This document shows positions 12,796-28,481 of a DNA stretch of 64,000 nucleotides, piece after piece. This DNA comes from Escherichia coli (GTDB taxonomy: Bacteria; Pseudomonadota; Gammaproteobacteria; Enterobacterales; Enterobacteriaceae), in the NCBI RefSeq assembly GCF_003991155.1, contig NZ_CP031293.1, one strand, 5' to 3'. Within the stretch, counting starts at the first letter, position 1, and each line of letters starts with the position of its first letter. The notes beneath the pieces are model-generated. The model worked only from the letters and a program-made list of their open reading frames with translations, searched no databases and was not told the origin of the DNA. The position numbers were made by a program, and so were the translations under genes.

Positions 12796-13143
12796 TTACG
12801 AATTACTGCGGCGCTGTTGCTTTTCCGCATGTACGCGTTTCACAATCTTATAAATCCATTGCAGCGTCAGATTATATTTCTTCGCTAATTCGGCGTAGTT
12901 GCGCCCATCGCACTCGCTATAGATTTGGTAGTCACGCTCCGATGCTCGTCCGGAGATCCCCTTAGGGAAATAAATGCTTTGTCCGCCCCAGTTACGCATC
13001 ATTCGGTCGGCAATGGCAAAGCCCACATTTTCTGCCGATGAACTGTCGAGATTGATGCTTTCAATCAGAACTTGCGATGCATGAAAAGCCAGGTCGTTAA
13101 TGATCTCCGGTGTCCGGGCCATCTCTTTTGATTTTCGTATCAT
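12796..13143 (-). CDS. Mor/C-family (phage Mu middle/late) transcriptional activator
   Basis: 115-aa ORF; C-terminus GGQSIYFPKG...RDYQIYSECDGRNYAELAKKYNLTLQWIYKIVKR matches the conserved Mor/C HTH region (Mu Mor GGGQVYIPRG...RIWNDFNGRNVSELTTRYGVTFNTVYKAIRR); GGAG RBS 7 nt upstream. Confidence 0.8.
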   Translation of the reverse strand: MIRKSKEMARTPEIINDLAFHASQVLIESINLDSSSAENVGFAIADRMMRNWGGQSIYFPKGISGRASERDYQIYSECDGRNYAELAKKYNLTLQWIYKIVKRVHAEKQQRRSNS

Positions 13144-13364
13144 TTTTCATCTCCATATATCTTGCATCCTGAATAAGACCCGATGCGTGTAAAACCACGG
13201 ATATACGCTAAGCAGTTGTCATTACTGCTACTCAATACATTCAACAAACAAATAAACAATTAACAAAAATATAAATTTTTAATATTAATGAACGCCATAA
13301 ATTCATGAAATAGATATATTGTTTGCGTTATGTTTCTTGTCAACAGGTGTATCATTTTACACGA

Positions 13365-13384
13365 TACTGTATACACATACAGTA
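13365..13384. promoter_or_regulatory. LexA operator (SOS box) TACTGTATACACATACAGTA
   Basis: Matches consensus TACTGTATATATATACAGTA at 18/20 with both CTG/CAG half-sites perfect; flanked by inverted TTTTACAC / GTGTAAAA; overlaps a candidate plus-strand sigma-70 promoter (TTTACA-16-TACAGT). Confidence 0.7.
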
Positions 13385-13680
13385 TTATTTTTACTTGTAG
13401 TGTAAAAAGATCGTTTCCCTCACAGTCGCTGACTTTCTTAAACAAACTTTAAAAATCAAATAACTACTGACTATTCCTACGATTCACCATCATCTTTTCC
13501 CTGCATAATGACGCGCTTATTCGCGAGGTCACCTTTTGCTCTTTAATTGCTGAGTGGATTTATTAGCGGGCATGTTCATTTATAGAGAATCTATTTTTTA
13601 AACTTATTTATTAAAGCTTTTTTCATTCTTCACTGGCGGGTTCTGGCGACACTAAACGCTCACTTATCAGGAGATACCGT

Positions 13681-13968
13681 ATGAAAAAAGTCACTCTTCC
13701 CCGGCTTTCCGGTTGGCTGGTCGCTTCCGTCGCGCTGTTTGTCGTGATCGGCTGGACCTCTTCAGCACAAATCCCGGTCGTCATTTATAAACTAAGCCTG
13801 GTTTCGCTTTCCGCGGTGCTGGGATACTGGCTCGATCGCAGTTTGTTCCCCTGGGCACGGCCTGACTCTTTTTGCCCCTGGAAGGAACCGCGTTGCTGCG
13901 CGGCGGCAATGATTCGCCGGGCTATCATCGTTGCTGCCGTCTGCCTTTCCGTCGCGTTAGGGCTATAG
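13681..13968 (+). CDS. Putative holin-like small membrane protein (three predicted hydrophobic segments)
   Basis: 95-aa ORF with hydrophobic helices, immediately upstream of the endolysin gene; function inferred from position. Confidence 0.45.
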   Translation: MKKVTLPRLSGWLVASVALFVVIGWTSSAQIPVVIYKLSLVSLSAVLGYWLDRSLFPWARPDSFCPWKEPRCCAAAMIRRAIIVAAVCLSVALGL

Positions 13969-13970
13969 TG

Positions 13971-14576
13971 ATGTGGCTGAAATATATCGCGTCTATGATT
14001 ATTTTCGTTCTTTTCCCACTCAACGCCTCTGAACCGCCGAGAGCCTCTCTGGCATGGCGAAACGAACTAATTCGTACAGCTCGAGAAGTCTGGGGGCTGA
14101 ATGCCCCAGTGGCCGACTTTGCCGGGCAATTACACCAGGAGTCCGCCTGGCAGCCAATGGTACGTTCCCCCGTTGGCGCACAAGGTATGGCGCAATTTAT
14201 GCCTGCTACAGCGACATGGATAAGCCAGTTGTATCCACAATTGCGTGAAAACAAACCGTATAACCCAACCTGGGCGATTCGCGCGCTGGTGCAATATGAC
14301 CAGCATTTGTGGAAAAACATCTCTGCGAAAAATGATTGTCAGCGTATGGCGTTTACCCTAAGCGCCTATAACGGCGGTCAGGGGTGGGTTAACCGGGATA
14401 AAAAACTGGCTGCATCCAAAGGGTTAGATGCCACTAGCTGGTTTGGTCATGTTGAGCAAGTCAACGCCGGGCGCAGCGCCACGAACTGGCGAGAAAATCG
14501 TCGCTATCCAAAGATGATCCTCTATCAACATGCCGCCCGCTATTTACTCTGGGGACAGGCAAGCTGTCTTCATTAA
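13971..14576 (+). CDS. Endolysin, lytic transglycosylase (SLT domain) with hydrophobic N-terminus (signal or SAR-like)
   Basis: Motifs HQESAW and GAQGMAQFMPATA typical of the SLT catalytic region; start taken at the internal ATG at 13971 just after the upstream ORF stop. Confidence 0.8.
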   Translation: MWLKYIASMIIFVLFPLNASEPPRASLAWRNELIRTAREVWGLNAPVADFAGQLHQESAWQPMVRSPVGAQGMAQFMPATATWISQLYPQLRENKPYNPTWAIRALVQYDQHLWKNISAKNDCQRMAFTLSAYNGGQGWVNRDKKLAASKGLDATSWFGHVEQVNAGRSATNWRENRRYPKMILYQHAARYLLWGQASCLH

Positions 14577-14588
14577 TCAGAGGGGCCG

Positions 14589-14903
14589 ATGAAACTCAGT
14601 ATCGATTTTTGGGAAGTGATCTCCCTTATGCTTTCCTTCGTTGGATTAATGTTTGCTGCCGGAAAACTGCTGTTAGCACAAATTGAAAAACGACTTAATG
14701 AGCGTTTTGAATCTCTGGAAAACGCGCGCCGGGAATCAGAAACAAGTTGGTCGAAACTGGAAAGAGAATTTCTCGAATTTCGTGCCGAGCTTCCGCTGCA
14801 TTATGTCCGCAGAGAAGATTATCTTCGTGGGCAAGCAGTATTAGAAGCGAAGCTGGATGCCTTATATAGCAAAATCGAGCTGTTACAACGTGGCAGTTAT
14901 TGA
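14589..14903 (+). CDS. Putative spanin-like lysis accessory protein (N-terminal TM helix plus coiled coil)
   Basis: 104-aa ORF, N-terminal hydrophobic segment followed by charged coiled-coil-like sequence; position after endolysin. Confidence 0.4.
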   Translation: MKLSIDFWEVISLMLSFVGLMFAAGKLLLAQIEKRLNERFESLENARRESETSWSKLEREFLEFRAELPLHYVRREDYLRGQAVLEAKLDALYSKIELLQRGSY

Positions 14904-14904
14904 A

Positions 14905-14941
14905 AAATCCCCACCCTTATGTAAGGGTGGGGATTTTTTTA
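14905..14941 (+). terminator. Strong rho-independent terminator (ATCCCCACCCTTatgtAAGGGTGGGGAT plus T7) between lysis cassette and tail genes
   Basis: 12-bp perfect stem followed by TTTTTTT; A-run on the other side makes it bidirectional. Confidence 0.7.
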
Positions 14942-15047
14942 ACCATTCAATTTTTTCTCTAAATCACATTAAAAGATTCTTCACCTTCGCTGCTTCAGAA
15001 TACATTTCAACGATAACGAAGTGAGCGGTAATTAAGGTACAGCCTAT

Positions 15048-15503
15048 ATGGAAATTTTATCTGTAATGAATTCTGTTGTGACCAGATTACGTGAACACAA
15101 CTCCGAAATGGATATATTTATTTCATCTAAGGATGCCCAGAAATATATTCCACAGACACAACGAGTTGCAGTGATTATTAATTATAGCGGTTCTGTCTTT
15201 GCTACGCCCGAAAGCAGTAATGCCATCGTGCAACAGCAAATACTCCGCTTAACCGCCACCGTTATTGTTGGCAAAAATTGTGATGCATTAAACGCACTTG
15301 ATCACATACGCAGCGCATTGGGTGGCCTTCAGCTTCCTGATTGCGATCGTCTTCTTTGGCTTGAAAAAGAAATTAATACGGGTGAGAGCGGCGGTTTCTG
15401 CCGCTACATCCTGGAAATGGCGACCAGCTCGCTATTTATCGCTGAACAGGAAAGCACGGATCTTCCCCTGCTTACGGAAGTTAACTACGAGGAAACTGAA
15501 TGA
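15048..15503 (+). CDS. Hypothetical tail-associated protein (first gene of tail operon; possibly tail completion/terminator)
   Basis: 151-aa ORF translationally coupled (ATGA) to the next ORF; role inferred only from position upstream of sheath. Confidence 0.5.
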   Translation: MEILSVMNSVVTRLREHNSEMDIFISSKDAQKYIPQTQRVAVIINYSGSVFATPESSNAIVQQQILRLTATVIVGKNCDALNALDHIRSALGGLQLPDCDRLLWLEKEINTGESGGFCRYILEMATSSLFIAEQESTDLPLLTEVNYEETE

Positions 15504-15697
15504 AATACATCTACAACGGCCCAGCAAGCGGCGTCACCCTTGCCGATGGACAAGAAATCTTATTGTGGCCGAACAGTGAAATTGATCTGCCAGAAGACAA
15601 CGAGTGGGTCATGACCATGATTGCCCGCAATCATCTGACTCCTGTCATCACTCAGGAAGAACAAAATAACGTAGAGGAAATTGTACATGGCAGCTAA
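15500..15697 (+). CDS. Small hypothetical protein (65 aa) preceding tail sheath
   Basis: ORF overlapping neighbours at both ends; typical of small conserved proteins upstream of Mu-like sheath genes. Confidence 0.4.
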   Translation: MKYIYNGPASGVTLADGQEILLWPNSEIDLPEDNEWVMTMIARNHLTPVITQEEQNNVEEIVHGS

Positions 15698-17111
15698 TTA
15701 TCTGCACGGTGTAGAAACTATTGAAATTGAAACCGGCCCGCGTCCGGTTAAAGCGGTAAAATCCGCCGTCATCGCTTTAATCGGTACAGCCCCCTGCGGT
15801 CCGGTAAATAAACCAACATTATGCCTTTCTGAAAGCGATGCTGCGCAGTTTGGCTCGACTCAGGCTAACTTTACGATCCCACAGGCACTGAAGGCAATTT
15901 ATGACCACGGTGCCGGTACGGTGGTGGTGATTAACGTGCTGGATCCGGCAAAACATGGCTCCAACATCAGCAATGAGAGTATCACTTTTGATGCTAACAA
16001 CCAGGCGAAGCTCGCTCACCGCAATGTGCGTAACGTGGTACTAAAGCCCTCTTCATCAAATTCATCAACCTTTAACACCGCAGCATTTAGCGTAGATGAA
16101 CAAACAGGCATAATTACCCGTAAAGGAGCCGACATTCCTCCTGGTGCGAAAGTTTGTGCCTATTATTCCTGGTGCGACCCTACAAAGGTCACCGCAGCCG
16201 ATATTATCGGTACCGTAAATACCGCAGGCGACCGCACGGGGATGAAACTGCTACAGGACACCTATAACCTGTATGGTTTCTACGCCAAAATCCTGCTTGC
16301 TCCCGTGTTCTGTACGCAAAAATCAGTAACTACAGAGCTGATTGCACAAGCGGAAAAACTTGGTGCGATTACCTACATTGATGCCCCGATTGGGACGACA
16401 TTCCAGCAGGTATTGGCAGGACGCGGTTCGCAAGGGGCTATCAACTTCAACACCAGCTCTGATCGTGCGCGTTTATGTTACCCACACGTCAAAGTTTACG
16501 ATGGCATCACTAACCAGGAAGTTCTCGAACCGCTCTCTTCGCGCGCTGCCGGGCTACGTGCCAAAGTAGACCTCGAAAAAGGTTTCTGGTGGAGCAACTC
16601 AAACCAAGAAATTCAGGGTATTACCGGTATTGAACGTTCGCTTTCCGCAATGATTGATGATCCACAAAGCGAAGTGAATCAGCTAAACGAAAACGGCATT
16701 ACCACTATTTTCAATAGTTACGGCTCTGGTCTGCGCTTGTGGGGCAACCGCACTGCAGCGTGGCCTACCGTGACCCATATGCGTAACTTTGAAAACGTCC
16801 GCCGGACAGGCGATGTAATTAATGAGTCAATCCGTTATTTCAGTCAGCAGTATATTGATATGCCGATTAATCAGGCGCTGATTGATGCCCTGACCGAATC
16901 GGTAAATACCTGGGGCCGTAAGCTGATTGCCGACGGCGCACTGCTTGGCTTTGAATGCTGGTACGATCCGGCGCGAAATTCACCGACTGAACTCAGCGCT
17001 GGGCATTTATTGCTGAGCTATAAATTCACCCCACCGCCGCCGCTGGAACGTCTGACGTTTGAAACTGAAATTACTTCTGAATATTTAGTCTCTCTGGAGA
17101 GCAATAGCTAA
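15687..17111 (+). CDS. Contractile phage tail sheath protein
   Basis: About 474-aa ORF starting MAANYLHGVETIEIETGPRPV...; size and N-terminal motif typical of Mu gpL / P2 FI-type sheath proteins; RBS GAGGAAA upstream of the ATG at 15687. Confidence 0.85.
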   Translation: MAANYLHGVETIEIETGPRPVKAVKSAVIALIGTAPCGPVNKPTLCLSESDAAQFGSTQANFTIPQALKAIYDHGAGTVVVINVLDPAKHGSNISNESITFDANNQAKLAHRNVRNVVLKPSSSNSSTFNTAAFSVDEQTGIITRKGADIPPGAKVCAYYSWCDPTKVTAADIIGTVNTAGDRTGMKLLQDTYNLYGFYAKILLAPVFCTQKSVTTELIAQAEKLGAITYIDAPIGTTFQQVLAGRGSQGAINFNTSSDRARLCYPHVKVYDGITNQEVLEPLSSRAAGLRAKVDLEKGFWWSNSNQEIQGITGIERSLSAMIDDPQSEVNQLNENGITTIFNSYGSGLRLWGNRTAAWPTVTHMRNFENVRRTGDVINESIRYFSQQYIDMPINQALIDALTESVNTWGRKLIADGALLGFECWYDPARNSPTELSAGHLLLSYKFTPPPPLERLTFETEITSEYLVSLESNS

Positions 17112-17635
17112 TGGCTGGAAAAATTCAAATTAACCGTATTACCAACGCCAATATTTATCTCGATGGTAATAACCTTTTAGGTCGTGCAACCGAAATTAAA
17201 TTGCCGGATGTCAGTTTAATTATGCAGGAGCATAAAGCACTGGGCATGGTGGGTAAAATCGAACTCCCGGCGGGTTTCGATAAACTGGAGGGCGAAATTA
17301 AATGGAACTCCTTCTATCAGGACGTAATGCGTAAAACGGCAAACCCGTGGCAGGCGGTTGCATTACAGTGCCGCTCCAGTATTGATTGCTATAACTCCCA
17401 GGGGAAAGCGAATCAATTAGCGCTAGTGACACATTTAACCGTGATGTTTAAAAAGAATCCACTGGGCACATTTAAACAGAATGAAAACCCGGAATTCAGC
17501 AGCGCCTTTGGTTGCACTTATATTAAACAAGTAGTTGATGGTGAAACGCTGCTTGAACTTGATTATATGGCCAATATTTTCCGGGTTAATGGTGTGGATC
17601 AATTAAGTACCTATCGCAATAACATCGGTGGCTAA
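17111..17635 (+). CDS. Phage tail tube protein
   Basis: 174-aa ORF directly following sheath (TAATG overlap); sheath-tube order conserved in contractile tails. Confidence 0.8.
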   Translation: MAGKIQINRITNANIYLDGNNLLGRATEIKLPDVSLIMQEHKALGMVGKIELPAGFDKLEGEIKWNSFYQDVMRKTANPWQAVALQCRSSIDCYNSQGKANQLALVTHLTVMFKKNPLGTFKQNENPEFSSAFGCTYIKQVVDGETLLELDYMANIFRVNGVDQLSTYRNNIGG

Positions 17636-17685
17636 GTTATTCGGGGCTACGGCCCCGAACTTTGCAAAATAAATAAGGACACAAA

Positions 17686-18003
17686 ATGAAAGAACATTAT
17701 ATCTTACAGTTCCCGTTTACTTCAGCGGCGGGAGACGTAATTAACACTCTGCAATTACGTCGCCTGAAAGTAAAAGATATGCGCAACGCGCGCCGGATCA
17801 GCGAAAAACCTGAAGAGTGGGATGAACCGCTAATGGCGGCAATGACCGGACTGGTGCCAGAAGATTTAGCTGAAATGGATTTGCTGGATTACCAGGCATT
17901 GCAGAAACGATTTCAATCCATGCTTAGCGTGGCTACAGAATCCGCCACTGTTATGGCAAGCGATGGCGTTACTGGCGAGATGGTTTCGCTTTCCACCCAG
18001 TGA
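17686..18003 (+). CDS. Putative tail assembly chaperone (gpE-like position)
   Basis: 105-aa acidic ORF between tube and tape measure genes. Confidence 0.5.
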   Translation: MKEHYILQFPFTSAAGDVINTLQLRRLKVKDMRNARRISEKPEEWDEPLMAAMTGLVPEDLAEMDLLDYQALQKRFQSMLSVATESATVMASDGVTGEMVSLSTQ

Positions 18004-18192
18004 GATAGACGCCCTTACCGTCGATGACTTTAGCAACTGGCTGGATGAAGCCAGCGCCCAAATAAAAATCGAATATGACTCGCAGACCTGATGTCTGCGA
18101 GTTTCCCAAGCCCGTCAGGTTTATTTCTTCCCTGCCCCTTTTTTTAGAAAAATAACCAGCGGGCCATTATCAATATTTAAAGAGAAACAATT

Positions 18193-20568
18193 TTGGCCAA
18201 CGATATTATTACCCAGCTTCAGGCGCGTAATGAGACGTTGACGCAGGCAATAGCCCGTTACGGCTCACTCAACGCCAGAACATTGTTAACTCTCTCTACT
18301 CAGCAGGCGACAGTTATCAAACTAACGCAGCAGCTTGCCGATTCCGCTCTCCGCCTGGAGGAAAATAGCCGCAGCCGCGCTAATCTGATGGAGAAAACCC
18401 AAACATTTGCCGGGCAATTTAGCAAAGTATTCAATGTTGAAGCCCCCGACTGGAAGTTGCCGTATGAGTTTCAGGACAACATGGTCAATATGGCGACCAA
18501 AGGTGGGATGAATGCTACAACCCGCGAGACGCTCAGCCTTAATCTGCGCGACTGGAGCATGGATTTTAACCAGCAGCAGACCACCTTACAGAACGCAGCC
18601 CAAACGCTGATCGAAGGCAATTTGTCGTCGATACAGGATCTCAACCGTTATATGCCGGAGATCGCCAAAGCTGCCACCGCCACGCGCGAAAGTGCTGAAA
18701 CATGGGCGAATGCCGCGCTCGCAACCCATGATCGACTGAATATTGCCCCGGAAAATTTCCACGCCGCGCAAAACATGATGTACGGCATTAGCAAAAGCGG
18801 TGGGCCTGCCATTGCTGAACAAACGCAGTGGATAGAGAAATTTGCAGGTAAAACCGGCGCTCAGGGTCTGGAAGGTATGGCTGAACTGACCGCCACCATG
18901 CAGATCGCCATGAAAAACGGGGCCAGCGCCAGTGCGGCGGCGGAGAATTTCGACCACTTTCTGCAAACCACCTTTTCGAAAAAAACCGATTACTGGTTCG
19001 TCAGCCAGGGCGTTGATCTGCAAGGCTCTCTGCTTGAGCATCAGCAAAACGGTATGGGTGTTAGCGAAGCCATGACTCATATCGTGCAAATGCAGCTTGA
19101 GAAGATGAATCCGGCGATCCTCGACACCTTCAAACGCACCATGCAGATCGAAGATTTATCTGCCCGCAGCAATGCGCTGCAATCGATGGTGACGCAGTTT
19201 AATCTGGGGGAAATGTTCGGCGATGCGCAAACAGTGGAATTCCTGGCCCCTATGCTGGCGAATATGGAGGAATATCGCCAGTTAAAAGCCTCTGCCATGC
19301 AAGCCACCAGCAAGAATCTGATTGATGCCGACTTTTCTGCGCAAATGGCCTCGCCCATTGAACAGACTAAAGCGTTACAGCTGGCGTTAAATGATTTATG
19401 GCTCAGCATTGGCTTGCAATTAATGCCGCTGATTGGCGAGCTGGCACAAAGCCTTACGCCGGTTATTCGTCAGTTCAGCGCCTGGCTACGTGAGCACCCG
19501 ACACTGGTGCAAAACATCGCGAAAATCGTCGGGGCGATTTGGCTGTTTAACGGTGCGCTGAATGTTTTAAAGCTGGGCGCGAACCTCATCACCTCGCCGT
19601 TTATTCGTCTGGTCGATATCTTCCTGAAAGTCAAGGCAAGTCTGGCGCTCACAGGCGGGGCAAGTAAGATGCTATCAGCGGTTAAGTCATTGGGTGGCGG
19701 CGCAAAATGGCTAACGCAACTGCTTGGTCGTGGCCTGATTGGAACATTGAAACTGGTTGGTCGGACCGTTCTCTCACTAGGCCGGGTGCTACTGATGAAT
19801 CCCATTGGTCTGGTCATCACTGCGATTGCGGGCGCTGCTTATCTGATTTATCGCAACTGGGAGCCTATCTCCAGGTTCTTTTCGACCATCTGGCAACGTA
19901 TCACCACGGCCTTTGACGGCGGCATTGCAGGAATTTGTCGGTTGATTCTCGACTGGTCACCGCTGGAGTTGTTCTATAGCGCCTTTTCCAGTGTGATGAA
20001 TTGGTTTGGTGTCGAGATGCCTGCAAGTTTTAGCGAGTTCGGCAGCAATCTTCTGGGCAGTCTGGTTGACGGCATAATGAATGCCTTCCCCGCTCTGAAA
20101 GGCATTATTGATCAGGTAAAAAACGCCATCCCAGACTGGCTAAAAACCACGATGGGTATTAGTACAGAAGGATCGGCTACAGCTATTACAAGCACGACTA
20201 ATACCGCATCCGTCTCCCCCGCGACCGTTGTTCCAGGCGTTGCCGGTGCGATTTTAACGCCGCCGGTGGGCAAACAACTCGCGCCATCCGGCAAAACGGC
20301 TACGCCGTCATCGGCGCCAGCGGCAAAAAATACAGCCGCCAAACCCGTATCTGCCTCTTTACCTGGTAAATCCGTAACCAAAGCGGCGACGCTACCTTCC
20401 CGTTCCTCAGGAAAAGTTCAGGTGAATTTTTCGCCACAAATTACCGTGCAGGGTAACGGACAAAACACCACTAAAGAGATTCAGAACGTGTTGACGATGA
20501 GTAAACGCGAACTGGAAAGAATGATTAACGATGTAATGGCGCAGCAGCAGCGCCGGGGGTATGCCTAA
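18193..20568 (+). CDS. Tail tape measure protein
   Basis: 791-aa ORF, alpha-helical and Ala/Gln-rich with central hydrophobic segments; position after chaperone; start codon uncertain (TTG at 18193 in track). Confidence 0.8.
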   Translation: MANDIITQLQARNETLTQAIARYGSLNARTLLTLSTQQATVIKLTQQLADSALRLEENSRSRANLMEKTQTFAGQFSKVFNVEAPDWKLPYEFQDNMVNMATKGGMNATTRETLSLNLRDWSMDFNQQQTTLQNAAQTLIEGNLSSIQDLNRYMPEIAKAATATRESAETWANAALATHDRLNIAPENFHAAQNMMYGISKSGGPAIAEQTQWIEKFAGKTGAQGLEGMAELTATMQIAMKNGASASAAAENFDHFLQTTFSKKTDYWFVSQGVDLQGSLLEHQQNGMGVSEAMTHIVQMQLEKMNPAILDTFKRTMQIEDLSARSNALQSMVTQFNLGEMFGDAQTVEFLAPMLANMEEYRQLKASAMQATSKNLIDADFSAQMASPIEQTKALQLALNDLWLSIGLQLMPLIGELAQSLTPVIRQFSAWLREHPTLVQNIAKIVGAIWLFNGALNVLKLGANLITSPFIRLVDIFLKVKASLALTGGASKMLSAVKSLGGGAKWLTQLLGRGLIGTLKLVGRTVLSLGRVLLMNPIGLVITAIAGAAYLIYRNWEPISRFFSTIWQRITTAFDGGIAGICRLILDWSPLELFYSAFSSVMNWFGVEMPASFSEFGSNLLGSLVDGIMNAFPALKGIIDQVKNAIPDWLKTTMGISTEGSATAITSTTNTASVSPATVVPGVAGAILTPPVGKQLAPSGKTATPSSAPAAKNTAAKPVSASLPGKSVTKAATLPSRSSGKVQVNFSPQITVQGNGQNTTKEIQNVLTMSKRELERMINDVMAQQQRRGYA

Positions 20569-21521
20569 TGTATGCCGTTTTAGGAGAGATTGAATTTAAG
20601 GTTGTCACATTCTGGGACGGCTTTAAAAGCACAATGGGCGTGGATTACGCCACACATGCCCGTATAGAAGGCAAACCCGGCGTGCAGTTTATTGGCGATA
20701 AGCTGGATATGCTGGCGCTGGAATTTTCCCTGCACAGCCAGTTTTGCCAGCCCACAACAGAGCTGAACCGACTGCGTGAAGCCATGCTTGCTCACAAGGC
20801 GATGGCACTGGTATTTGGCAATGGCGATTATCGCGGCTGGTTTGTGATTACGGAGCTAACCGCCACCCACCAGCACACCGATCCCTGGGGCAATGTGATT
20901 GCCCAAAACGGAACGATGTCGCTCCAGGAGTACACCGGCGATCCTAAAAATCCACTTTTACCTCCGGCGATTACCACCCAGGAGCCCAACATCGAGGAAA
21001 AGGCGAGCGATTTTCCCGACAAGGTGGAGTCCTGGTTTGATCAGATATTAAACGCCATTGAAGAAGGTATGCGTAAGGCCAAAGAGATGCTGGATGAACT
21101 GACACAATCCATTGAAGATATTAAAAAAACGGTGGCAAAAGTGAAAGCAATGATTAAAGAGGCCAAAGCGTTAAAAGAAAAGTGTGAAAAGATAATTACG
21201 TCATTGAAAAAGACAATCGACGCCATCGAAACCCTGTTTAAACAGCCAATGGATCTGCAAACGCTGGCAGGCCTACCAAAAGCGTTGTCGGCGCAGATTA
21301 AAGCTTTACTGGGTAACATGCCAGGTATCCGGGACTGCGCCAATGACGCCAGTACGCTGGTTGACCATGCTCAGGCGCTTTTCGACGACATTACCAGCGA
21401 CATCGCCGAAGCGACGTTCGATAAAGCCACGTCGTTGGTTGAGCAGGCACGTACAACGGTACAACAAACCACTCCCGCAGTGAGCCAGCTTGCTGCCGTA
21501 ACCATTACCAGGAGCTGGTAA
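20568..21521 (+). CDS. Tail protein, P2 gpU-like N-terminal domain with coiled-coil C-terminal extension
   Basis: N-terminal region (ARIEGKPGVQFIG...WFVITELTATHQHT) resembles the P2 gpU / Mu N N-terminal family; overlaps TMP stop. Confidence 0.7.
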   Translation: MYAVLGEIEFKVVTFWDGFKSTMGVDYATHARIEGKPGVQFIGDKLDMLALEFSLHSQFCQPTTELNRLREAMLAHKAMALVFGNGDYRGWFVITELTATHQHTDPWGNVIAQNGTMSLQEYTGDPKNPLLPPAITTQEPNIEEKASDFPDKVESWFDQILNAIEEGMRKAKEMLDELTQSIEDIKKTVAKVKAMIKEAKALKEKCEKIITSLKKTIDAIETLFKQPMDLQTLAGLPKALSAQIKALLGNMPGIRDCANDASTLVDHAQALFDDITSDIAEATFDKATSLVEQARTTVQQTTPAVSQLAAVTITRSW

Positions 21522-21730
21522 TGCGATACCTTGAACATATCACCACCGATGGCGAACGCTGGGATAACCTGGCATGGCATTACTACGGTGATGCGCTGGC
21601 TTATGAACGCATAATCGCCGCCAATCCACATGTAGCCATTTACCCGGTACTGCCTTCCGGTATTCAGCTCATTATTCCGGTCATTTCCGTTAATAAAACC
21701 TTATCGGAGATCCCACCATGGCTGAGATGA
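21521..21730 (+). CDS. Tail protein X-like (small LysM-like tail protein)
   Basis: 69-aa ORF with AANP...LP.G pattern as in P2 gpX; located between U-like and D-like genes as in R-type pyocin clusters. Confidence 0.7.
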   Translation: MRYLEHITTDGERWDNLAWHYYGDALAYERIIAANPHVAIYPVLPSGIQLIIPVISVNKTLSEIPPWLR

Positions 21731-22758
21731 GCGTAACTGGTGGCGTCTTTGCCACACTCACGCCCATTTTTACCCTCTGGTATGGGCATAAAGATATCAC
21801 TTATGACATCACACCCTATGTCACCAGCATCAGTTACCACGACAGCATCAAAAACGAGTCGGATACCATCGCAATTACACTGGATGACACAGATGGACGC
21901 TGGATAAAAGAGTGGTATCCCGGCAAAGGCGATACGCTGGCGCTGCATATAGGTTATCAGGGGGAAAAGCTGCTCGATTGTGGCCAGTATATTATTGATA
22001 AAATTGATATTTCAGCGCCACCTTCCACGGTAAATATTGATGGCATCGCCACTTCCGTCAATCAGGCGCTGCGCACCCGTAACAGCCAGGGCTTTGAAGA
22101 AACGACGCTTTCGGCGATCGCCAGCCGTATTGCCCAAACGCACGGTCTGAAACTGGTGGGCAAAATCGAGTCGCTCACCATCGACCGGGTAACGCAGTAT
22201 GGTGAAACCGATGTCGGATTTCTCAAACGTCTGGCCAGTGAATATGGTTATGCCGTAAAAGTGACGACAAAAGAGCTGATTTTTTCACATTTACCCACGC
22301 TGCGCTGCCTGACGCCTGTGAAAAAGATCGATCGCAAAGAGGTTTCTCATTTTACCTTCAAAGACACCATTAACCGGATCTACAAGAACGCCACCGTACA
22401 GCATCAAAATAGTAAGAAAAAAGAACTGGTTATCTACACTCACAACAGCCAGCAAAAACCATCTGTCCGTGGAGTCGGCACTAGTGCCGACACGCTAAAA
22501 CTGAACAGTCGGGCGACGGACGTTGGCGCAGCACAGGCAAAGGCTAACGCTGCACTCGACAGCCACAACGAATATCAGCAAACCGGAACGCTCACAATGA
22601 TGGGCTGCCCGGAACTGACGGCGGGCAATAAAATTGAACTGACCGATTTTGGCGTGATTTCCGGTCAGTGGCTGATTGATAAATCTACTCACAGTTTTGT
22701 GCGCAGCGGCTATACCACTGAAATCGACGTGTCACGCGGGCCAGCGACCAGCCAGTAA
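21718..22758 (+). CDS. Phage late control D-like / Mu gpP-like tail (baseplate hub) protein
   Basis: 346-aa ORF in the conserved U-X-D position. Confidence 0.75.
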   Translation: MAEMSVTGGVFATLTPIFTLWYGHKDITYDITPYVTSISYHDSIKNESDTIAITLDDTDGRWIKEWYPGKGDTLALHIGYQGEKLLDCGQYIIDKIDISAPPSTVNIDGIATSVNQALRTRNSQGFEETTLSAIASRIAQTHGLKLVGKIESLTIDRVTQYGETDVGFLKRLASEYGYAVKVTTKELIFSHLPTLRCLTPVKKIDRKEVSHFTFKDTINRIYKNATVQHQNSKKKELVIYTHNSQQKPSVRGVGTSADTLKLNSRATDVGAAQAKANAALDSHNEYQQTGTLTMMGCPELTAGNKIELTDFGVISGQWLIDKSTHSFVRSGYTTEIDVSRGPATSQ

Positions 22759-22767
22759 GGAGGAAAT

Positions 22768-23469
22768 ATGAAAGGAGTAACCCGTCAAACGGGGATTATC
22801 AGCGATATTGACGAAACCAGTGTTCGGGTACGGGTCACTCTACCAGAGTGTGACAATCTGAAGAGCAACTGGCTTGCGGTACTTCAACGCAATTCCCAGG
22901 ACAATAAAGACTACTGGCTACCGGATATGGGCGAGCAAGTGGAAGTTCTGCTGGACGATAACGGTGAAGATGGCGTGGTGCTGGGTGCCGTTTATTCTAC
23001 GGTTGACACCGCGCCTGTAGCCTCGCGCGACAAACGTTACGTCCAGTTTTCTGATGGCGCAGCGTTTGAATATGACCGCAGCACGCACCAGCTGACGATT
23101 AACGGCGGTATCGAGAAAATCGTGATTGAGGTTATCGACAGCACCCGCCTGACATCGCCCAACGTTGAGATTAAAGCCCAACACGTCACCGTGACTTCCG
23201 ATACCGTCGATGTTAAAGCGACCGATGTCAGCATCGACGCCACTAAGGTCGAGGTTAAAGCAGCAGCAGTGACGGTAGATGCGCCCATGAGCACCTTTAC
23301 TGGCAACGTCACGGTAATGAAAAAACTCACCTGGCTTGGCGGGATGGCAGGAAGTGGAGGCATCGGTAACGCAGCCACGATAACCGGCAATGTCAACGTG
23401 ATCGGCAACGTTCAGGCCAGCGGCGCATTGCAGGACAGCGGTGGCAACTCCAACCACCATTCACACTGA
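22768..23469 (+). CDS. Baseplate assembly protein V-like (central spike)
   Basis: 233-aa ORF; N-terminal OB-fold-like region and C-terminal repetitive beta region (VTVTSDTVDVKATDVSIDATKVEVKAAAVTVDA) typical of gpV spikes. Confidence 0.8.
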   Translation: MKGVTRQTGIISDIDETSVRVRVTLPECDNLKSNWLAVLQRNSQDNKDYWLPDMGEQVEVLLDDNGEDGVVLGAVYSTVDTAPVASRDKRYVQFSDGAAFEYDRSTHQLTINGGIEKIVIEVIDSTRLTSPNVEIKAQHVTVTSDTVDVKATDVSIDATKVEVKAAAVTVDAPMSTFTGNVTVMKKLTWLGGMAGSGGIGNAATITGNVNVIGNVQASGALQDSGGNSNHHSH

Positions 23470-23472
23470 CTT

Positions 23473-23505
23473 TTAACCCGCCTGATGGCGGGTTTTCTCT
23501 TTTTA
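23473..23505 (+). terminator. Hairpin (AACCCGCCtgatGGCGGGTT) plus T-rich tract after the spike gene; possible partial intra-operon terminator
   Basis: Perfect 8-bp stem followed by TTCTCTTTTT. Confidence 0.5.
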
Positions 23506-23567
23506 ATCAATCAGTTTTCTAAATCGCTTTAATATCTCCACAGCCCGTTCAGGGCGAAAATACCCTC

Positions 23568-23927
23568 ATGAACACAAAAACACGCCCCTCAACGCTGCAC
23601 TGGCAACCGGCCTTGCAGCGGCCTGAAGAATACGTCTGCGGGCTGGATGATATTCACCAGGCAATACACATCATTCTGCGTACACCGCGCGGCAGTGATC
23701 CCCACAGACCGCTGTTTGGCAGCAACTTGTGGCACTACATCGATTACCCCATCGAGCGGGCTATCCCGCATGTGGTACGGGAGTCGGTGGAAGCCATCCG
23801 CCAGTGGGAACCGCGCTGTCGGTTGCTGAAGGTGACACCAGTAATCGACGGCGAACATCTGACGTTACGTGTGCAATGGCGCGCCGCTGACGGCGTTATC
23901 AACTCAACGGAGGTGTTATGGCGATAG
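23568..23927 (+). CDS. Baseplate wedge protein gpW / gp25-like
   Basis: 119-aa ORF; PRGSDPHRPLFGSNLWHYIDYP resembles the GPW_gp25 family core. Confidence 0.75.
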   Translation: MNTKTRPSTLHWQPALQRPEEYVCGLDDIHQAIHIILRTPRGSDPHRPLFGSNLWHYIDYPIERAIPHVVRESVEAIRQWEPRCRLLKVTPVIDGEHLTLRVQWRAADGVINSTEVLWR

Positions 23928-25033
23928 CCGAACCCAATTTTATTGACCGCGATCCTGCGCAAATTACCAGTGAGATGATTGCGCAATACGAAGATGCCAG
24001 TGGTAAAAAACTCTATCCGGCACAGGCTGAGCGGTTGCTCATCGACCTGTTTGCCTATCGTGAAAACCTTGTACGCATCGCCATTCAGGAAGCGGCGAAA
24101 CAAAACCTGGTCGCGTATTCCCGCGCGCCAATGCTGGATTATTTAGGGGAGTTGGTGGGAGTTCACCGTTTGCCTGCGCAGCCTGCAAAAACGACGTTGC
24201 AGTTTTCGGTCGTTAGTGCGTATCCCGGCAATATCCTGATTCCCCAGGGGACGCGGGCCAGTGCCTCTGATAGCGTGATGTTCGCCACCGATGAAGATGT
24301 TCTGCTTCCGGCCAGGAGTTTGCATATCGCCGTTCCTGCCACCAGCCTCGCAGCAGGTGAACAGGGTAACGGCTGGCAGCCTGCACAAATTAGCGCACTG
24401 GTCGACAGGATTGGTCATTATGACATCAACGTAACCAACCTGACTGCGTCAACGGGCGGCTGCGGTGAAGAGAGCGATGACGCATTGCGCCAGCGTATCC
24501 AACTGGCACCAGAAAGCTTTAGTAATGCGGGCAGCTATGGTGCCTACCGCTTTCATACGCTTTCTGTTAGCCAGTCGATTATTGACGTTGCAGTACTGGG
24601 GCCGGACGAGGGATTGCCAGAAGGCTGCGTGGAGATCTACCCGCTAACCCTGAATGGTCTACCCGGCACGGAGTTGCTGGCGCAGATTGAACAAGAAGTC
24701 AGCAAGGAGAAAAAACGACCGCTGACCGACAAAGTGAGTGCGAAATGCGCTCTTCGAGTGCCGTATGAGATCCGTGCGCAGCTAATGCTGTTTACCACCG
24801 CCGATCAGGAGACAACGCTGGCTGCGGCGCGTAAAGCGATTAGCCTCTGGACGCAACAGCGGCAGAAACATCTGGGGCAGGACATTGTGCCAAACCAGAT
24901 AATCAAAGTGTTACAGGTCGATGGCGTCTATGACGTTGCGCTGAATATGCCTACAAAACGTATTTTGCAGGCGCATGAATGGGCGGAATGCACTGCAATA
25001 GACGTCACGATTGCCGGAGTCAGCGATGGATAA
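23918..25033 (+). CDS. Baseplate protein J-like
   Basis: 371-aa ORF after gpW with GGAGG RBS; W-J-I order. Confidence 0.8.
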   Translation: MAIAEPNFIDRDPAQITSEMIAQYEDASGKKLYPAQAERLLIDLFAYRENLVRIAIQEAAKQNLVAYSRAPMLDYLGELVGVHRLPAQPAKTTLQFSVVSAYPGNILIPQGTRASASDSVMFATDEDVLLPARSLHIAVPATSLAAGEQGNGWQPAQISALVDRIGHYDINVTNLTASTGGCGEESDDALRQRIQLAPESFSNAGSYGAYRFHTLSVSQSIIDVAVLGPDEGLPEGCVEIYPLTLNGLPGTELLAQIEQEVSKEKKRPLTDKVSAKCALRVPYEIRAQLMLFTTADQETTLAAARKAISLWTQQRQKHLGQDIVPNQIIKVLQVDGVYDVALNMPTKRILQAHEWAECTAIDVTIAGVSDG

Positions 25034-25742
25034 ATTGCTGCCACCGCCGCCGCTTGCCAGCGATGAGCGTTTTTCGATTCTGGCAAACATCGCCGCCGAG
25101 CGTTTTGCCCAACTCGATCTGACGGCGTTGATGGTTTATCTGGTCGACCTGGTTGATGCTTCGGCATTACCAGCCCTTGCAGAACAATTTCACGTTCAGG
25201 GGCTGGAAGGTTGGTTATTTACCACCGATGAGCGGGAGAAACGCGAGTTAATTAAACAAGCCATTGAACTGCATAAATATAAAGGAACAATTTGGGCGGT
25301 ACGGCGAGTGCTGGAAATACTTTCCTTACCCGGAACTATTTCAGAATGGTTTGAATATGGGGGAAGGGCTTATTTTTTTAAGGTAAATATTACACTAGAG
25401 GAAAAAGGATTAAATGAAGATGAATTCAATGCACTTATCACATTAATTCATGAATATAAAAATGTTCGTTCAAAGCTGGAAAGCATTGTTATTTGGCTTA
25501 TTAATCGAAGCCCAATACCAGTTATTGGCAGCGCCATGCAAGGAGGGGAAGTCATTACAGTATTGCCTCCTGTTGCAGAAAGCCTCAGCCAGTCATCAGG
25601 AATATTTTTAGCGACGGGTTATTGTGTGGAGGAATATATCCAACTACTACCTTATCAACCCGATCGCCTTACACAATCCCAACCGATGAAGGTCGGCACA
25701 GGATACTGGAGCACCGAAATTATGTCTGTATATCCGGAGTAA
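25026..25742 (+). CDS. Tail protein I-like (baseplate)
   Basis: About 238-aa ORF from ATG 25026 overlapping J stop; position before tail fiber. Confidence 0.7.
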
Positions 25743-25744
25743 TA

Positions 25745-27325: not shown

Positions 27326-28029
27326 ATACTTTTACCTTTTCTGATGAAGCTCAAATACTAACTGTATATAATTTTTCACAAGACTCCCAAGAATATATCG
27401 GTGAGTCTGATGCATACATTGCACCTAATACAGGCTTGCCAAATTATTGCACATTAATTTCACCTCCCGAAAAGGCTCCTGGTTTTACTCCAGTGTGGGA
27501 GAATGAAACATGGAGACTTATTGAAGATCATCGAGGCCAAACTGTTTATAACAAAGTTGATGGTAGCCAGCTTATTATTCAAGAATTGGGCCAATTACCT
27601 GAAAATGTAACAGTCATTTCCCCGACAGGTTCTTTTGAACGTTGGGATGGTGAAAAATGGCAACCATCTATAACCGATGCTAAAGAGGCGAAATACTCTG
27701 CAATCAAAAATCAACGCGATGCCATCACAACCGATTACATCATCATCAACAACCATCACTTCCACAGTGATACAAATAGCCGTATCCAACAGCTTTCACT
27801 CACAAAAATGGGAGCGGAGAAAAAAATTCCGCCAGGGTTAATGTGGAAAACTAAAAATAATGGTCTGATTGAGTTAACCAACGAAATCGCTGCCCAGTTT
27901 GAATCGGTCACCATGGATCACGATATGCGCTTGTTCGCAAACGCCCAGCGTCATATCGCGGCGGTGGAAGCACTGGACGATATTCAGGCGGTGCTCGACT
28001 ACGATTATTCAACAGGCTGGCAACCATGA
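27322..28029 (+). CDS. Tail fiber assembly (chaperone) protein
   Basis: 235-aa ORF overlapping the fiber stop (ATGA); lower GC than surrounding genes, typical of host-range modules. Confidence 0.75.
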
Positions 28030-28481
28030 GTAAAACCACTGTCTGGCTCGCTTGTTATAAGGGCCGAACAGAGCACCGTGGTATTGCCCGACTGGCTGAC
28101 TGGCTTACCCGTAAAATCACACGCGGTAGTTATTCCCACTGTGAATTAGCCGTTAAGCATGGTGAAAAGAGATACCTTTGTTACTCCGCATCACTGCGCG
28201 ATCGCGGTGTACGCGGAAAAATAATGCCATTGCCAGCGGATAAGTGGGATATGCTGCCGCTCCAGGCCAGCCTTCAGGATGTGGAAACTTTTTTCCGTAA
28301 ACATGATGGCAAAAAATATGACTGGCGCGGAGCATTAGGAATTATTATCGGTAATAAAGAACAGCGCGATCGCCTGTTTTGCAGTGAATTTTGTGCTGAA
28401 TTTCTGCAACTGAAGGAAAGCTGGCGCTATTCTCCAAACCACTTGTACGCTTTAGTCAGTAGCTGGCAATATCAGCCGTAA
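28026..28481 (+). CDS. Hypothetical protein (151 aa), Cys/His-containing, translationally coupled to tail fiber assembly gene
   Basis: Intact ORF with ATGA overlap to upstream gene; no confident family assignment. Confidence 0.5.
   Translation: MSKTTVWLACYKGRTEHRGIARLADWLTRKITRGSYSHCELAVKHGEKRYLCYSASLRDRGVRGKIMPLPADKWDMLPLQASLQDVETFFRKHDGKKYDWRGALGIIIGNKEQRDRLFCSEFCAEFLQLKESWRYSPNHLYALVSSWQYQP

What the first reader, a model, noticed from the sequence alone, without database searches (positions are those of the whole stretch)
13605..14990. Shared TTAAAG...ATTCTTCAC motif upstream of both the lysis operon and the tail operon: candidate late-promoter element
The 9-mer ATTCTTCAC, preceded by TTAAA(A)G, occurs about 50-65 nt upstream of the first ATG of the lysis cassette (13611-13633) and again upstream of the first tail-operon gene (14969-14984), just after the strong terminator. 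A shared element at equivalent positions of two operons in an island carrying a Mor/C-type activator is what would be expected for activator-dependent late promoters. The match could be coincidence (rough chance estimate for a shared 9-mer in two ~100-bp regions is a few percent).
Basis: seen in the sequence. Interest (0 to 1): 0.45.

Follow-up and report, generated by a model that had tools for sequence, protein, structure and literature searches.

The report
Mor-type late promoters of a tail island

Summary
ATTCTTCAC occurs only twice in the window, at 13625 and 14976.

The 9-mer is not the functional element:
- It is absent from the orthologous tail promoter in five other genera (2-4 of 9 bases kept).
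- It varies within E. coli.
- A comparable shared 9-mer appears in 8-15% of shuffles.

What is conserved is a box TAA-N6-TT(A/T), lying exactly 24 nt upstream of a conserved -10-like hexamer, with no -35. This is the layout of the mapped Mor site of phage Mu promoter Pm (TAAAGCCGGTTA, centre -43.5).

- The box sits before the lysis operon (13612-13623) and the tail operon (14960-14971).
- Phage BcepMu and related prophages carry near-identical boxes at the same gene junctions. The island derives from a BcepMu-type phage, and its Mor is 49% identical to BcepMu gp01.

Verdict: the Mor-dependent late-promoter idea is supported by sequence comparison only, but with a different motif. This is a new member of a known kind and of modest interest.

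The parts
12796..13143 (-). mor: Mor/C-family transcription activator (115 aa), the only regulator gene in the island
   Evidence: Pfam Mor PF08765, E = 7e-38. It is 49% identical to BcepMu gp01, 27% to Mu Mor and 34% to Mu C. Orthologues in five other taxa are 80-90% identical.
13356..13384 (+). LexA (SOS) box TACTGTATACACATACAGTA (13365-13384), overlapping a sigma-70-like promoter TTTACA-16-TACAGT (13356-13383) that points towards the lysis genes
   Evidence: It is the only such box in the window, with 0.03 expected. The promoter scan finds the + strand promoter. The box and the TTTACA hexamer are invariant in E. coli, Salmonella, Phytobacter and Superficieibacter, and are lost in the Enterobacter-type allele. 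Which transcript it controls is unresolved.
13439..13451 (.). Palindrome TAAAC-AAA-CTTTA, box-like but with one extra base between the arms; function unknown
   Evidence: It is conserved in E. coli, Salmonella and Phytobacter. No suitably spaced -10 was found on either strand.
13599..13610 (+). Extra complete dyad TAAACTTATTTA, 13 bp upstream of the lysis-promoter box; part of the 25-bp block that is invariant in five of the six taxa
   Evidence: The block is CATTTTTTAAAsTTATTTATTAAAG. It may be a second Mor site or an UP-like element (inference).
13612..13623 (+). P1 (lysis promoter) Mor-type box TAAAGCTTTTTT: good left arm, weak right arm (TTT).
   Evidence: 7 of 12 columns are invariant in 6 taxa, against 4 of 24 in the spacer. 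It lies 24 nt from the hexamer, as in Mu Pm.
13625..13633 (+). It lies in the spacer at about -36..-28. A partly conserved rTTCTTC is specific to this promoter.
13648..13653 (+). P1 -10-like hexamer GACACT (consensus nAnACT); predicted start near 13660
   Evidence: Conserved in all taxa with no indels between box and hexamer. No -35 is present.
13681..14903 (+). Lysis operon: holin (13681-13968), SLT lytic transglycosylase (13971-14576) and a 104-aa membrane protein (14589-14903)
   Evidence: Pfam Holin_2-3 and SLT; RefSeq annotation.
14902..14940 (+). Intrinsic terminator ending the lysis operon
   Evidence: -26.9 kcal/mol, z = -5.5, followed by a T7 run.
14960..14971 (+). P2 (tail promoter) Mor-type box TAAATCACATTA.
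   Evidence: TAA.....ATTA is invariant in 6 taxa. The BcepMu boxes before gp21 and gp32 read TAAAGCCGATTAAAAGAC.
14976..14984 (+). It lies in an unconserved spacer at about -33..-25.
   Evidence: Only 2-4 of 9 bases are kept in other taxa. E. coli A10 has ATTCTCCAC.
14996..15001 (+). P2 -10-like hexamer CAGAAT (nAnAAT in most taxa); predicted start near 15008
   Evidence: The spacing of 24 nt is kept; Superficieibacter electus has 25.
15048..23469 (+). Tail operon 1: gp37, a 65-aa ORF, sheath, tube, chaperone, tape measure, gpU, gpX, gpD and gpV
   Evidence: Pfam; RefSeq annotation.
23475..23505 (+). Intrinsic terminator after the baseplate V gene
   Evidence: -15.3 kcal/mol, z = -5.6, followed by a T-rich run.
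23520..23531 (+). P3 (baseplate/fibre promoter) Mor-type box TAAATCGCTTTA; a perfect palindrome TAAAGCGCTTTA in Salmonella and Phytobacter
   Evidence: 10 of 12 columns are invariant in 6 taxa. It is the only extra hit in the window of the pattern shared by P1 and P2. The BcepMu homologue is TAGCCGGCTTTA before gpW.
23556..23561 (+). P3 -10-like hexamer GAAAAT, followed by 6 nt and then the ATG of gpW (23568). This predicts a leaderless mRNA.
   Evidence: The hexamer is invariant in 6 taxa, and there is no Shine-Dalgarno sequence. The same layout, CAACAT + 6 nt + ATG, is found in BcepMu.
23568..28481 (+). Tail operon 2: gpW, gpJ, gpI, tail fibre, fibre assembly protein and a 151-aa ORF
   Evidence: RefSeq annotation; ORF list.

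Best explanation
The window carries a head-less, BcepMu-type phage tail cluster with its lysis cassette, lying beside lysC. Its three operons each start with an activator-dependent sigma-70 promoter.

Each promoter has three features:
- a -10-like hexamer (nAnACT or nAnAAT);
- no -35;
- 24 nt upstream of the hexamer, a 12-bp imperfect dyad TAA-N6-TT(A/T), with its centre near -43.5.

The island's Mor protein most likely binds this box. It would then recruit RNA polymerase by contacts with sigma region 4 and the alpha C-terminal domain, as Mu Mor does at Pm. T-rich DNA just upstream of the box may serve as the UP-like contact.

A LexA box between mor and the lysis operon suggests that DNA damage starts the cascade.

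Shown here: the sequences, their spacing, their conservation, and their homology to Mu and BcepMu. Inferred: Mor binding, the transcription starts, and SOS control.
For: 1. The island encodes a Mor-family protein. It is 49% identical to gp01, the only Mor/C-family gene annotated in BcepMu, and the alignment runs through the C-terminal half that carries the helix-turn-helix in Mor-family proteins.
2. Alignments of six taxa show the box and hexamer conserved while the spacer drifts. Invariant columns: box 7/12, 7/12 and 10/12; spacer 4/24, 3/24 and 6/24.
3. The spacing from box to hexamer is 24 nt in all three promoters. In Mu Pm, TAAAGCCGGTTA + 24 nt + TATCCT has the same spacing. I fixed the Mu numbering from the published -57G and -54A (PMC4390567). 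This places the published dyad (-51 to -36, centre -43.5) on AGTAAAGCCGGTTAAT.
4. No sigma-70 promoter with a -35 is detected at any of the three sites.
5. The pattern common to P1 and P2, taken in register, has one further hit in the 64 kb, against 0.145 expected in total. That hit lies on the right strand in the only other terminator-bounded gap of the tail cluster, at P3.
6. BcepMu carries TAAAGCCGATTAAAAGAC before both holin gp21 and head gene gp32, and TAGCCGGCTTTAATATC before gpW, each at the same distance from a nAnnAT hexamer.
7. Pandoraea, Xenorhabdus and Photorhabdus prophages have TAA-N6-TTA-N24-hexamer before their holin genes. This holds in 11 of 26 loci, against a background of 0.0056 per 110 nt.
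8. P2 and P3 each follow a strong terminator, so each operon needs its own promoter.
Against: - There are no transcription or binding data for this island. Starts, Mor dependence and SOS control are all inferred.
- The box is short and A/T-rich, so it has little information on its own.
- P1 has a poor right arm (TTT, no final A) and an extra upstream dyad, so its geometry may differ.
- The island Mor is only 27% identical to Mu Mor, so the likeness of the boxes could partly reflect common descent of the promoters rather than shared binding specificity.
- The orthologous islands are related by descent, so their conservation counts as few independent observations.
- The Enterobacter-type allele has degraded versions: ATTAGAAG, hexamer AAAGCT, and no LexA box.
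- I did not find a convincing promoter for mor itself.
Confidence: 0.7

Rival explanations
1. The shared ATTCTTCAC 9-mer, with its TTAAA(A)G prefix, is itself the activator recognition element or a special -35-like element of the late promoters.
For: There are exactly two copies in 64 kb, both on the coding strand, in the two promoter regions. Bases just downstream of the Mor site matter at Mu Pm (PMC2582627). A related rTTCTTC is partly conserved at the lysis promoter.
Against: At the tail promoter only 2-4 of 9 bases are kept in five other taxa, and the 9-mer varies within E. coli. It is absent from the third promoter and from the BcepMu, Pandoraea, Xenorhabdus and Photorhabdus promoters. 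The two copies are 3 bp out of register with the -10 hexamers. TTCAC lies too close to the hexamers (10-13 nt) to act as a -35. A comparable shared 9-mer arises in 8-15% of shuffles.
Confidence: 0.05
2. The conserved A/T-rich boxes are bound by a host protein (IHF, Fis, H-NS) or simply act as UP elements or curved DNA, and Mor acts elsewhere or not at all on these promoters.
For: The boxes and their flanks are A/T-rich with T-tracts. Mu Pm does have an UP-like proximal subsite (PMC4390567). P1 carries a 25-bp A/T block, invariant in five of the six taxa, that is longer than one Mor dyad.
Against: The same box, TAAAGCCGATTAAAAG, stands out in G+C-rich Burkholderia and Pandoraea DNA at the same gene junctions. 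It matches the experimentally defined Mor site of Mu Pm at 11 of 12 positions, with identical spacing to the hexamer. Dyad symmetry is perfect in Salmonella P3. Mor is the only regulator gene kept in the island.
Confidence: 0.12
3. The island is a decaying prophage remnant whose promoters are conserved only by recent common descent and no longer function. Any transcription is read-through or from the LexA-controlled promoter.
For: RefSeq marks the tape-measure gene as a pseudogene in an identical E. coli copy. The Enterobacter-type allele has lost the LexA box and weakened the boxes. Some E. coli strains carry an IS insertion in this stretch. Salmonella has gtrABC inserted in the cluster.
Against: The island sits at the same locus in at least five genera, plus a sixth taxon known only from a metagenome contig that resembles Superficieibacter. 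Its proteins are 70-92% identical, apart from the faster-evolving gp37 (37-60%), while intergenic DNA outside the box, hexamer and LexA box is scrambled. This is the pattern of purifying selection on both genes and signals. The tape-measure frame is open over 18193-20568 in the window.
Confidence: 0.13

Closest known systems
Phage Mu middle promoter Pm and its activator Mor (Artsimovitch & Howe 1996; Ma & Howe 2015, PMC4390567; Mo & Howe 2014, PMC4287176)
   Same: - A Mor-family activator is encoded in the element.
- There is a -10 hexamer and no -35.
- An imperfect dyad is centred at -43.5. Its core, TAAAGCCGGTTA, resembles the island boxes (TAAAGCGCTTTA in Salmonella P3).
- The box lies 24 nt from the hexamer in both.
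- A/T-rich DNA lies just upstream.
   Different: - The island Mor is only 27% identical to Mu Mor.
- In Mu, Mor drives one promoter that makes C, and C drives the late promoters. Here a single activator appears to drive the lysis and tail promoters directly.
- P1 has a weak right arm and an extra upstream dyad.
- Nothing has been tested experimentally.
[quoted passage not shown]
   Same: Several late operons, lysis included, each have an activator site centred at -43.5 that overlaps the -35 region, and a non-consensus -10. The island Mor is 34% identical to C over the DNA-binding part.
   Different: I did not compare the C sites in detail. C is made from a Mor-dependent middle promoter, and no second activator exists in the island.
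Burkholderia phage BcepMu (NC_005882) and BcepMu-like prophages
   Same: - Gene order and proteins match: holin, SLT endolysin, gp37, gp38, sheath, tube and on to the fibres.
- The only Mor/C-family gene annotated in BcepMu, gp01, is 49% identical to the island Mor.
- Near-identical boxes lie before the holin, before the next morphogenesis operon, and before gpW, with the same spacing.
- gpW has the same hexamer + 6 nt + ATG layout.
   Different: - BcepMu is a complete transposable phage with early, head and transposition genes. The island keeps only mor, lysis and tail genes.
- In the island, mor is a solitary, divergently oriented gene with a LexA box nearby, rather than the last gene of an early operon.
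- I found no published description of BcepMu late promoters in the library searched.
SOS-induced R-type tailocins such as Pseudomonas R-pyocins (PrtR/PrtN and P-box) and Burkholderia BceTMilo (PMC5411513)
   Same: A tail plus lysis cluster without head genes. A dedicated activator has a repeated box before the structural operons. There is a link to DNA damage.
   Different: The activator family (Mor/C, not PrtN) and the tail lineage (BcepMu type, not P2 type) differ. The SOS link here is a direct LexA box, not a cleavable repressor. Particle production and killing have not been shown.

Membership tests
Mor/C-dependent promoters (Mu Pm type) | A Mor/C-family activator is encoded by the same element | tested here: met
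   Pfam Mor, E = 7e-38. BLASTP against Mu Mor gives 9e-13, Mu C 6e-11 and BcepMu gp01 4e-37.
Mor/C-dependent promoters (Mu Pm type) | A recognisable -10 hexamer but no -35 hexamer | tested here: met
   Conserved hexamers are GAyACT, nAnAAT and GAAAAT. The consensus scan finds no sigma-70 promoter at the three sites. The -35 region matches TTGACA at 0-1 of 6 positions (read from the sequence).
Mor/C-dependent promoters (Mu Pm type) | An imperfect dyad centred at -43.5, overlapping the -35 region | tested here: met
   TAA-N6-TTA lies 24 nt upstream of the hexamer at P2 and P3, with the same spacing as TAAAGCCGGTTA-24-TATCCT in Mu Pm. P1 has the left arm and TTT only, so it meets the feature in part.
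Mor/C-dependent promoters (Mu Pm type) | An A/T-rich alpha-CTD (UP-like) contact just upstream of the activator site | tested here: inconclusive
   T-tracts are present and partly conserved upstream of all three boxes, but the sequence alone cannot show a contact.
Mor/C-dependent promoters (Mu Pm type) | Transcription depends on the activator, and the activator binds the dyad | not testable with these tools
   This needs reporter fusions, footprinting and start-site mapping.
BcepMu-like phage late regulatory signals | The same box at homologous gene junctions in BcepMu-type genomes | tested here: met
   BcepMu carries it before gp21, gp32 and gp49. Pandoraea, Xenorhabdus and Photorhabdus carry it before the holin gene.
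LexA (SOS) regulon operator | A 20-bp box TACTG(TA)5CAGTA with CTGT-N8-ACAG, placed over a promoter | tested here: met
   TACTGTATACACATACAGTA at 13365-13384 is unique in the window. It overlaps TTTACA-16-TACAGT and is conserved in four genera. LexA binding, and which gene it controls, were not testable.
R-type tailocin (phage tail-like bacteriocin) | A complete contractile-tail gene set plus lysis genes, with no head, replication or integration genes | tested here: met
   The annotation runs from mor to the fibre-assembly genes, and the flanks are lysC and host genes.
R-type tailocin (phage tail-like bacteriocin) | Production of tail particles that kill other strains | not testable with these tools
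   This needs induction, electron microscopy and killing assays. I found no report.

The most novel reading that the evidence does not exclude
A BcepMu-derived tail cluster has been kept at the lysC locus across at least five enterobacterial genera as a working tailocin.
- It is run by a stripped-down, one-activator Mor cascade. LexA release starts it, and Mor then fires three box-dependent promoters.
- One of these promoters makes a leaderless baseplate mRNA, a layout preserved since the common ancestor with a Burkholderia phage.
- The extra dyad at P1 and the 13-bp palindrome near the LexA box would be further Mor sites that time lysis or feed back on mor.
Probability: 0.3. Interest if true: 0.5.

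Novelty: new member of a known kind. Interest (0 to 1): 0.3.

Why it matters
If right, this gives a concrete and cheaply testable regulatory map for a phage-tail island. The island is present in about 3.6% of complete E. coli genomes, and in Salmonella (the known "phage remnant" that carries a gtrABC O-antigen operon), Enterobacter, Phytobacter and Superficieibacter.

It defines the recognition box of the BcepMu branch of the Mor/C family. It also shows that the box, its position at -43.5 and its spacing to the hexamer are shared between Mu and BcepMu-type elements, which helps annotate late promoters in many Mu-like prophages.

It does not change what is known about how such activators work. 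The practical lesson for the scan is that a shared exact word between two A/T-rich promoter regions was a false lead. Comparison with orthologues found the real signal.

Tried and rejected
- **Aligning the two promoters on ATTAAA(A)G.** This put the -10 hexamers 11 bp out of register. I rejected it once P3 and Salmonella P1 showed that the alignment anchored on the -10 hexamer shares TTAAAGC.
- **Treating TTCAC(T/C) of the 9-mer as a -35.** The spacers to the conserved hexamers are only 13 and 10 nt, and alternative downstream hexamers are not conserved.
- **Looking for 5-6-5 dyads by eye in the low-complexity DNA.** This was unproductive until Mu Pm had been numbered.
- **The palindrome at 13439-13451 as a fourth Mor promoter.** It has one extra base between the arms, and no convincing hexamer lies at the right distance on either strand. 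I left it unexplained.
- **The promoter of mor.** I found only an E. coli-specific TTGACA on the minus strand. The conserved sigma-70-like promoter at the LexA box points away from mor. This is unresolved.
- **A small ORF or structured RNA between the LexA box and the holin gene.** There is no conserved ORF, no stable fold and no Rfam family above threshold.
- **Literature.** Searches for the Salmonella locus tags, for tailocin plus Mor, and for BcepMu late promoters found nothing on the regulation of this island. The ST131 tailocin paper concerns a P2-like prophage.
- **Distant Mor homologues.** P0024 and P0032 gave contexts that were not informative.
Full report
**1. Where we are**

The window is E. 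coli chromosome. Its first 31 kb are collinear with strain 2016C-3878. Between lysC (11392-12741) and yjbD lies a roughly 16-kb island containing:
- a Mor-family gene on the minus strand (12796-13143; Pfam Mor, E = 7e-38);
- a lysis cassette: holin, SLT transglycosylase and a membrane protein, 13681-14903;
- a full contractile-tail gene set, 15048-28481.

There are no head, replication, transposition or integration genes. About 195 of 5426 complete E. coli genomes carry the island.

The same island sits beside lysC in Salmonella (STM4198-STM4219), Phytobacter, two Superficieibacter species, an Enterobacter-type lineage, and a metagenome contig that resembles Superficieibacter. Gene order and proteins are those of Burkholderia phage BcepMu. 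The only Mor/C-family gene annotated there, gp01, is 49% identical to the island Mor.

**2. The observation**

The strings are present exactly as described:
- TTAAAG 13611-13616, then 8 nt, then ATTCTTCAC 13625-13633, 47 nt before the holin ATG;
- TTAAAAG 14969-14975, directly followed by ATTCTTCAC 14976-14984, 63 nt before the gp37 ATG. This copy lies just after a strong terminator (14902-14940, -26.9 kcal/mol, z = -5.5).

The 9-mer occurs nowhere else in the window. Both regions are A/T- and T/C-rich, however. Dinucleotide-preserving shuffles of the two 120-nt regions share some 9-mer in 15% of trials, and a non-repetitive one in 7.6%. On its own, the shared word is weak evidence.

**3. Comparison with orthologues**

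I aligned the mor-holin and membrane-protein-gp37 intergenic regions of seven sequences from six taxa.

*Upstream of the holin gene:*
- A 25-bp block, CATTTTTTAAAsTTATTTATTAAAG, is invariant in five taxa.
- A hexamer GAyACT lies 31 nt after that block in every sequence, with no indels.
- The Shine-Dalgarno region is also conserved. Everything else is scrambled.

*Upstream of gp37:*
- ATTAAAAG, a preceding CTAAA, a T-tract, and a hexamer nAnAAT 20 nt after ATTAAAAG are conserved.

*The 9-mer columns are not conserved:*

| Promoter | Salmonella | Phytobacter | S. electus | Enterobacter-type | Metagenome contig |
|---|---|---|---|---|---|
| Tail (P2), bases of 9 matching | 4 | 2 | 4 | 3 | 4 |
| Lysis (P1), bases of 9 matching | 6 | 3 | 6 | 6 | 6 |

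E. coli strain A10 has ATTCTCCAC at the tail promoter. In no other genus do the two regions share a word at that place. The longest shared word elsewhere is in the Enterobacter-type allele: TTTTACTAAA, which is the T-tract plus the left arm of the box described below, in register.

**4. A third site and the correct register**

Within the tail cluster there is only one other sizeable gap bounded by a terminator. It lies between baseplate gene V (ends 23469) and gene W (starts 23568).

This gap holds a terminator (23475-23505, -15.3 kcal/mol, z = -5.6). After it comes TTTTCTAAATCGCTTTAATAT, then 20 nt, then GAAAAT, then 6 nt, then the ATG. That is the architecture of the gp37 promoter: CTAAATCACATTAAAAG, 20 nt, CAGAAT.

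The site is conserved in all six taxa: 10 of 12 box columns, all 6 hexamer columns, and the ATG context. In Salmonella and Phytobacter the box is the perfect palindrome TAAAGCGCTTTA. In Salmonella the site survives even though the gtrABC operon has been inserted just upstream of it.

Anchoring all three promoters on their hexamers puts a 12-bp element TAA-N6-TT(A/T) exactly 24 nt upstream of each:

| Promoter | Box | Coordinates |
|---|---|---|
| P1 (lysis) | TAAAGCTTTTTT | 13612-13623 |
| P2 (tail) | TAAATCACATTA | 14960-14971 |
| P3 (baseplate) | TAAATCGCTTTA | 23520-23531 |

The pattern common to P1 and P2 in this register is TAAA-N4-WTT-N26-AnAMT. It has three hits in 64 kb on both strands: P1, P2 and P3. 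Shuffles give a mean of 0.145. P3 was not used to define the pattern, so it serves as an independent confirmation.

The two 9-mer copies are 3 bp out of register, at about -36..-28 and -33..-25.

**5. Comparison with Mu**

The published facts on Mu Pm are these (PMC4390567, PMC4287176, PMC2582627):
- Mor binds a 16-bp imperfect dyad at -51 to -36, centre -43.5, made of two 5-bp inverted repeats around a G/C-rich hexamer.
- Pm has a -10 but no -35.
- A/T-rich DNA just upstream binds the alpha C-terminal domain.
- C binds a related dyad at the same position in the late promoters.

I read the Mu sequence and fixed the numbering from the published -57G and -54A. These fit only if +1 is base 725 of locus L072. 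The dyad is then AGTAAAGCCGGTTAAT, and the -10 is TATCCT at -13..-8. Its core TAAAGCCGGTTA is followed by 24 nt and then the hexamer, the same spacing as in the island.

In Mu numbering the island boxes are therefore centred at -43.5. None of the three sites has a -35 (0-1 matches to TTGACA by inspection).

**6. Comparison with BcepMu-type elements**

BcepMu carries three matching sites:
- CTAAAGCCGATTAAAAGAC before holin gp21;
- the identical TAAAGCCGATTAAAAGAC before head gene gp32, also downstream of a hairpin;
- TAGCCGGCTTTAATATC before gpW.

Each lies 24 nt from a nAnnAT hexamer. The gpW site again has hexamer + 6 nt + ATG. The BcepMu box matches the Mu Pm core at 11 of 12 positions (TAAAGCCGATTA against TAAAGCCGGTTA).

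A Pandoraea prophage has CTCTAAACCTGATTAAAAGAC, then 20 nt, then GATCAT before its holin gene. Three Xenorhabdus and six Photorhabdus species have TAACGCCCTTTA, then 24 nt, then AAAACT. Overall, 11 of 26 BcepMu-type loci carry TAA-N6-TTA-N24-nAnnnT within 150 nt upstream of the holin gene. The background is 0.0056 per 110 nt.

These boxes stand out in G+C-rich genomes. That argues against a mere composition effect or a host-specific factor.

The island promoters P1, P2 and P3 thus correspond to the BcepMu promoters before gp21, gp32 and gp49. P2 looks like the gp32 promoter fused to gp37 after loss of the head genes (inference).

**7. Mechanism proposed**

Mor binds the box and recruits sigma-70 RNA polymerase to three promoters that lack a -35. 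This produces the lysis operon, the sheath-to-spike operon and the baseplate-fibre operon. The last would be a leaderless mRNA starting at the A of the gpW ATG.

A recent preprint reports that Mor and C bind as tetramers covering about 26 bp (10.1101/2025.05.02.651988). This may explain why P1 has a second, complete dyad (TAAACTTATTTA, 13599-13610) 13 bp upstream of its proximal box, inside the 25-bp invariant block. That link is speculation.

What is shown: sequence, spacing, conservation and homology. What is inferred: binding, transcription starts and dependence on Mor.

**8. How it may be switched on**

A near-consensus LexA box (TACTGTATACACATACAGTA, 13365-13384) is unique in the window. 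It is conserved in four genera, together with a TTTACA hexamer on its mor side. Together they form a sigma-70-like promoter, TTTACA-16-TACAGT, that points towards the lysis genes.

Several points remain unclear:
- The distance from the mor ATG to the box is conserved (221-231 nt). The distance to the holin ATG is not.
- I found no conserved ORF, stable RNA fold or Rfam family downstream of the box.
- I found no convincing promoter for mor.

SOS control is therefore likely, but its wiring is open. A conserved palindrome, TAAAC-AAA-CTTTA (13439-13451), resembles the box with one extra base and is also unexplained.

**9. Verdict**

The motif named is not the operative one.

The finding is a new member of a known kind: Mor/C-dependent promoters, here of the BcepMu lineage in a probable tailocin. 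I found no prior description of these promoters, or of the island's regulation, in the library searched. The 2004 BcepMu paper was not available to me.

Noticed in passing
window 13356-13384: A near-consensus LexA box (TACTGTATACACATACAGTA) overlaps a sigma-70-like promoter, TTTACA-16-TACAGT, that points towards the lysis genes. It is conserved in E. coli, Salmonella, Phytobacter and Superficieibacter and lost in the Enterobacter-type allele. Its distance to the mor ATG is conserved (221-231 nt). Which transcript it controls is unclear.
   Followed up: partly
window 13439-13451: A conserved palindrome, TAAAC-AAA-CTTTA, lies between the LexA box and the lysis promoter. It looks like the Mor-type box with one extra base between the arms, and has no matching -10 at the expected distance on either strand.
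   Followed up: partly
window 23556-23570; L088 (BcepMu) about 30805-30825: The baseplate W gene has no Shine-Dalgarno sequence, and its ATG lies 6 nt after the predicted -10 hexamer. This predicts a leaderless mRNA. The same layout is kept in all six island taxa and in phage BcepMu.
   Followed up: partly
L080 (Salmonella AFYI01000007.1) 7423-10747, equivalent to window 23470-23510: In Salmonella the O-antigen glucosylation operon gtrABC (STM4204-4206) is inserted between baseplate genes V and W, just upstream of the intact P3 box. The terminator-promoter junction has served as a cargo insertion site.
   Followed up: partly
window 12796-28481; loci L002, L081-L084: The whole head-less BcepMu-type tail and lysis cluster sits at the same place, beside lysC, in at least five enterobacterial genera plus a sixth taxon known only from a metagenome contig. 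Most of its proteins are well conserved and its intergenic DNA is scrambled. This makes it a candidate domesticated tailocin. No functional report was found.
   Followed up: partly
window 18193-20568: RefSeq marks the tape-measure gene as a pseudogene ('internal stop') in an identical E. coli copy. Yet the frame is open over exactly these coordinates in the window, starting at a TTG. The 190-nt gap before it (18003-18193) may hold the usual frameshifted chaperone extension.
   Followed up: no
window 28496-30420, minus strand: Directly after the tail-fibre genes lie two genes on the opposite strand: a nucleotidyltransferase-domain protein and a slipin (SPFH) family protein. They may be cargo or a defence pair. 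I did not examine them.
   Followed up: no
hits H1 and H2 (E. coli CREC-544 and EC0585), within the stretch equivalent to window 12700-15700: Two strains carry an ISL3-family element (ISKox3) inserted in this 3-kb regulatory and lysis stretch. This may disrupt control of the island.
   Followed up: no
L087 (E. coli A10) 3360-3477: This E. coli allele lacks the terminator between the lysis and tail operons. Its P2 box resembles the Phytobacter one (TAAAGCAGATTA), so the island alleles within E. coli are mosaic.
   Followed up: no
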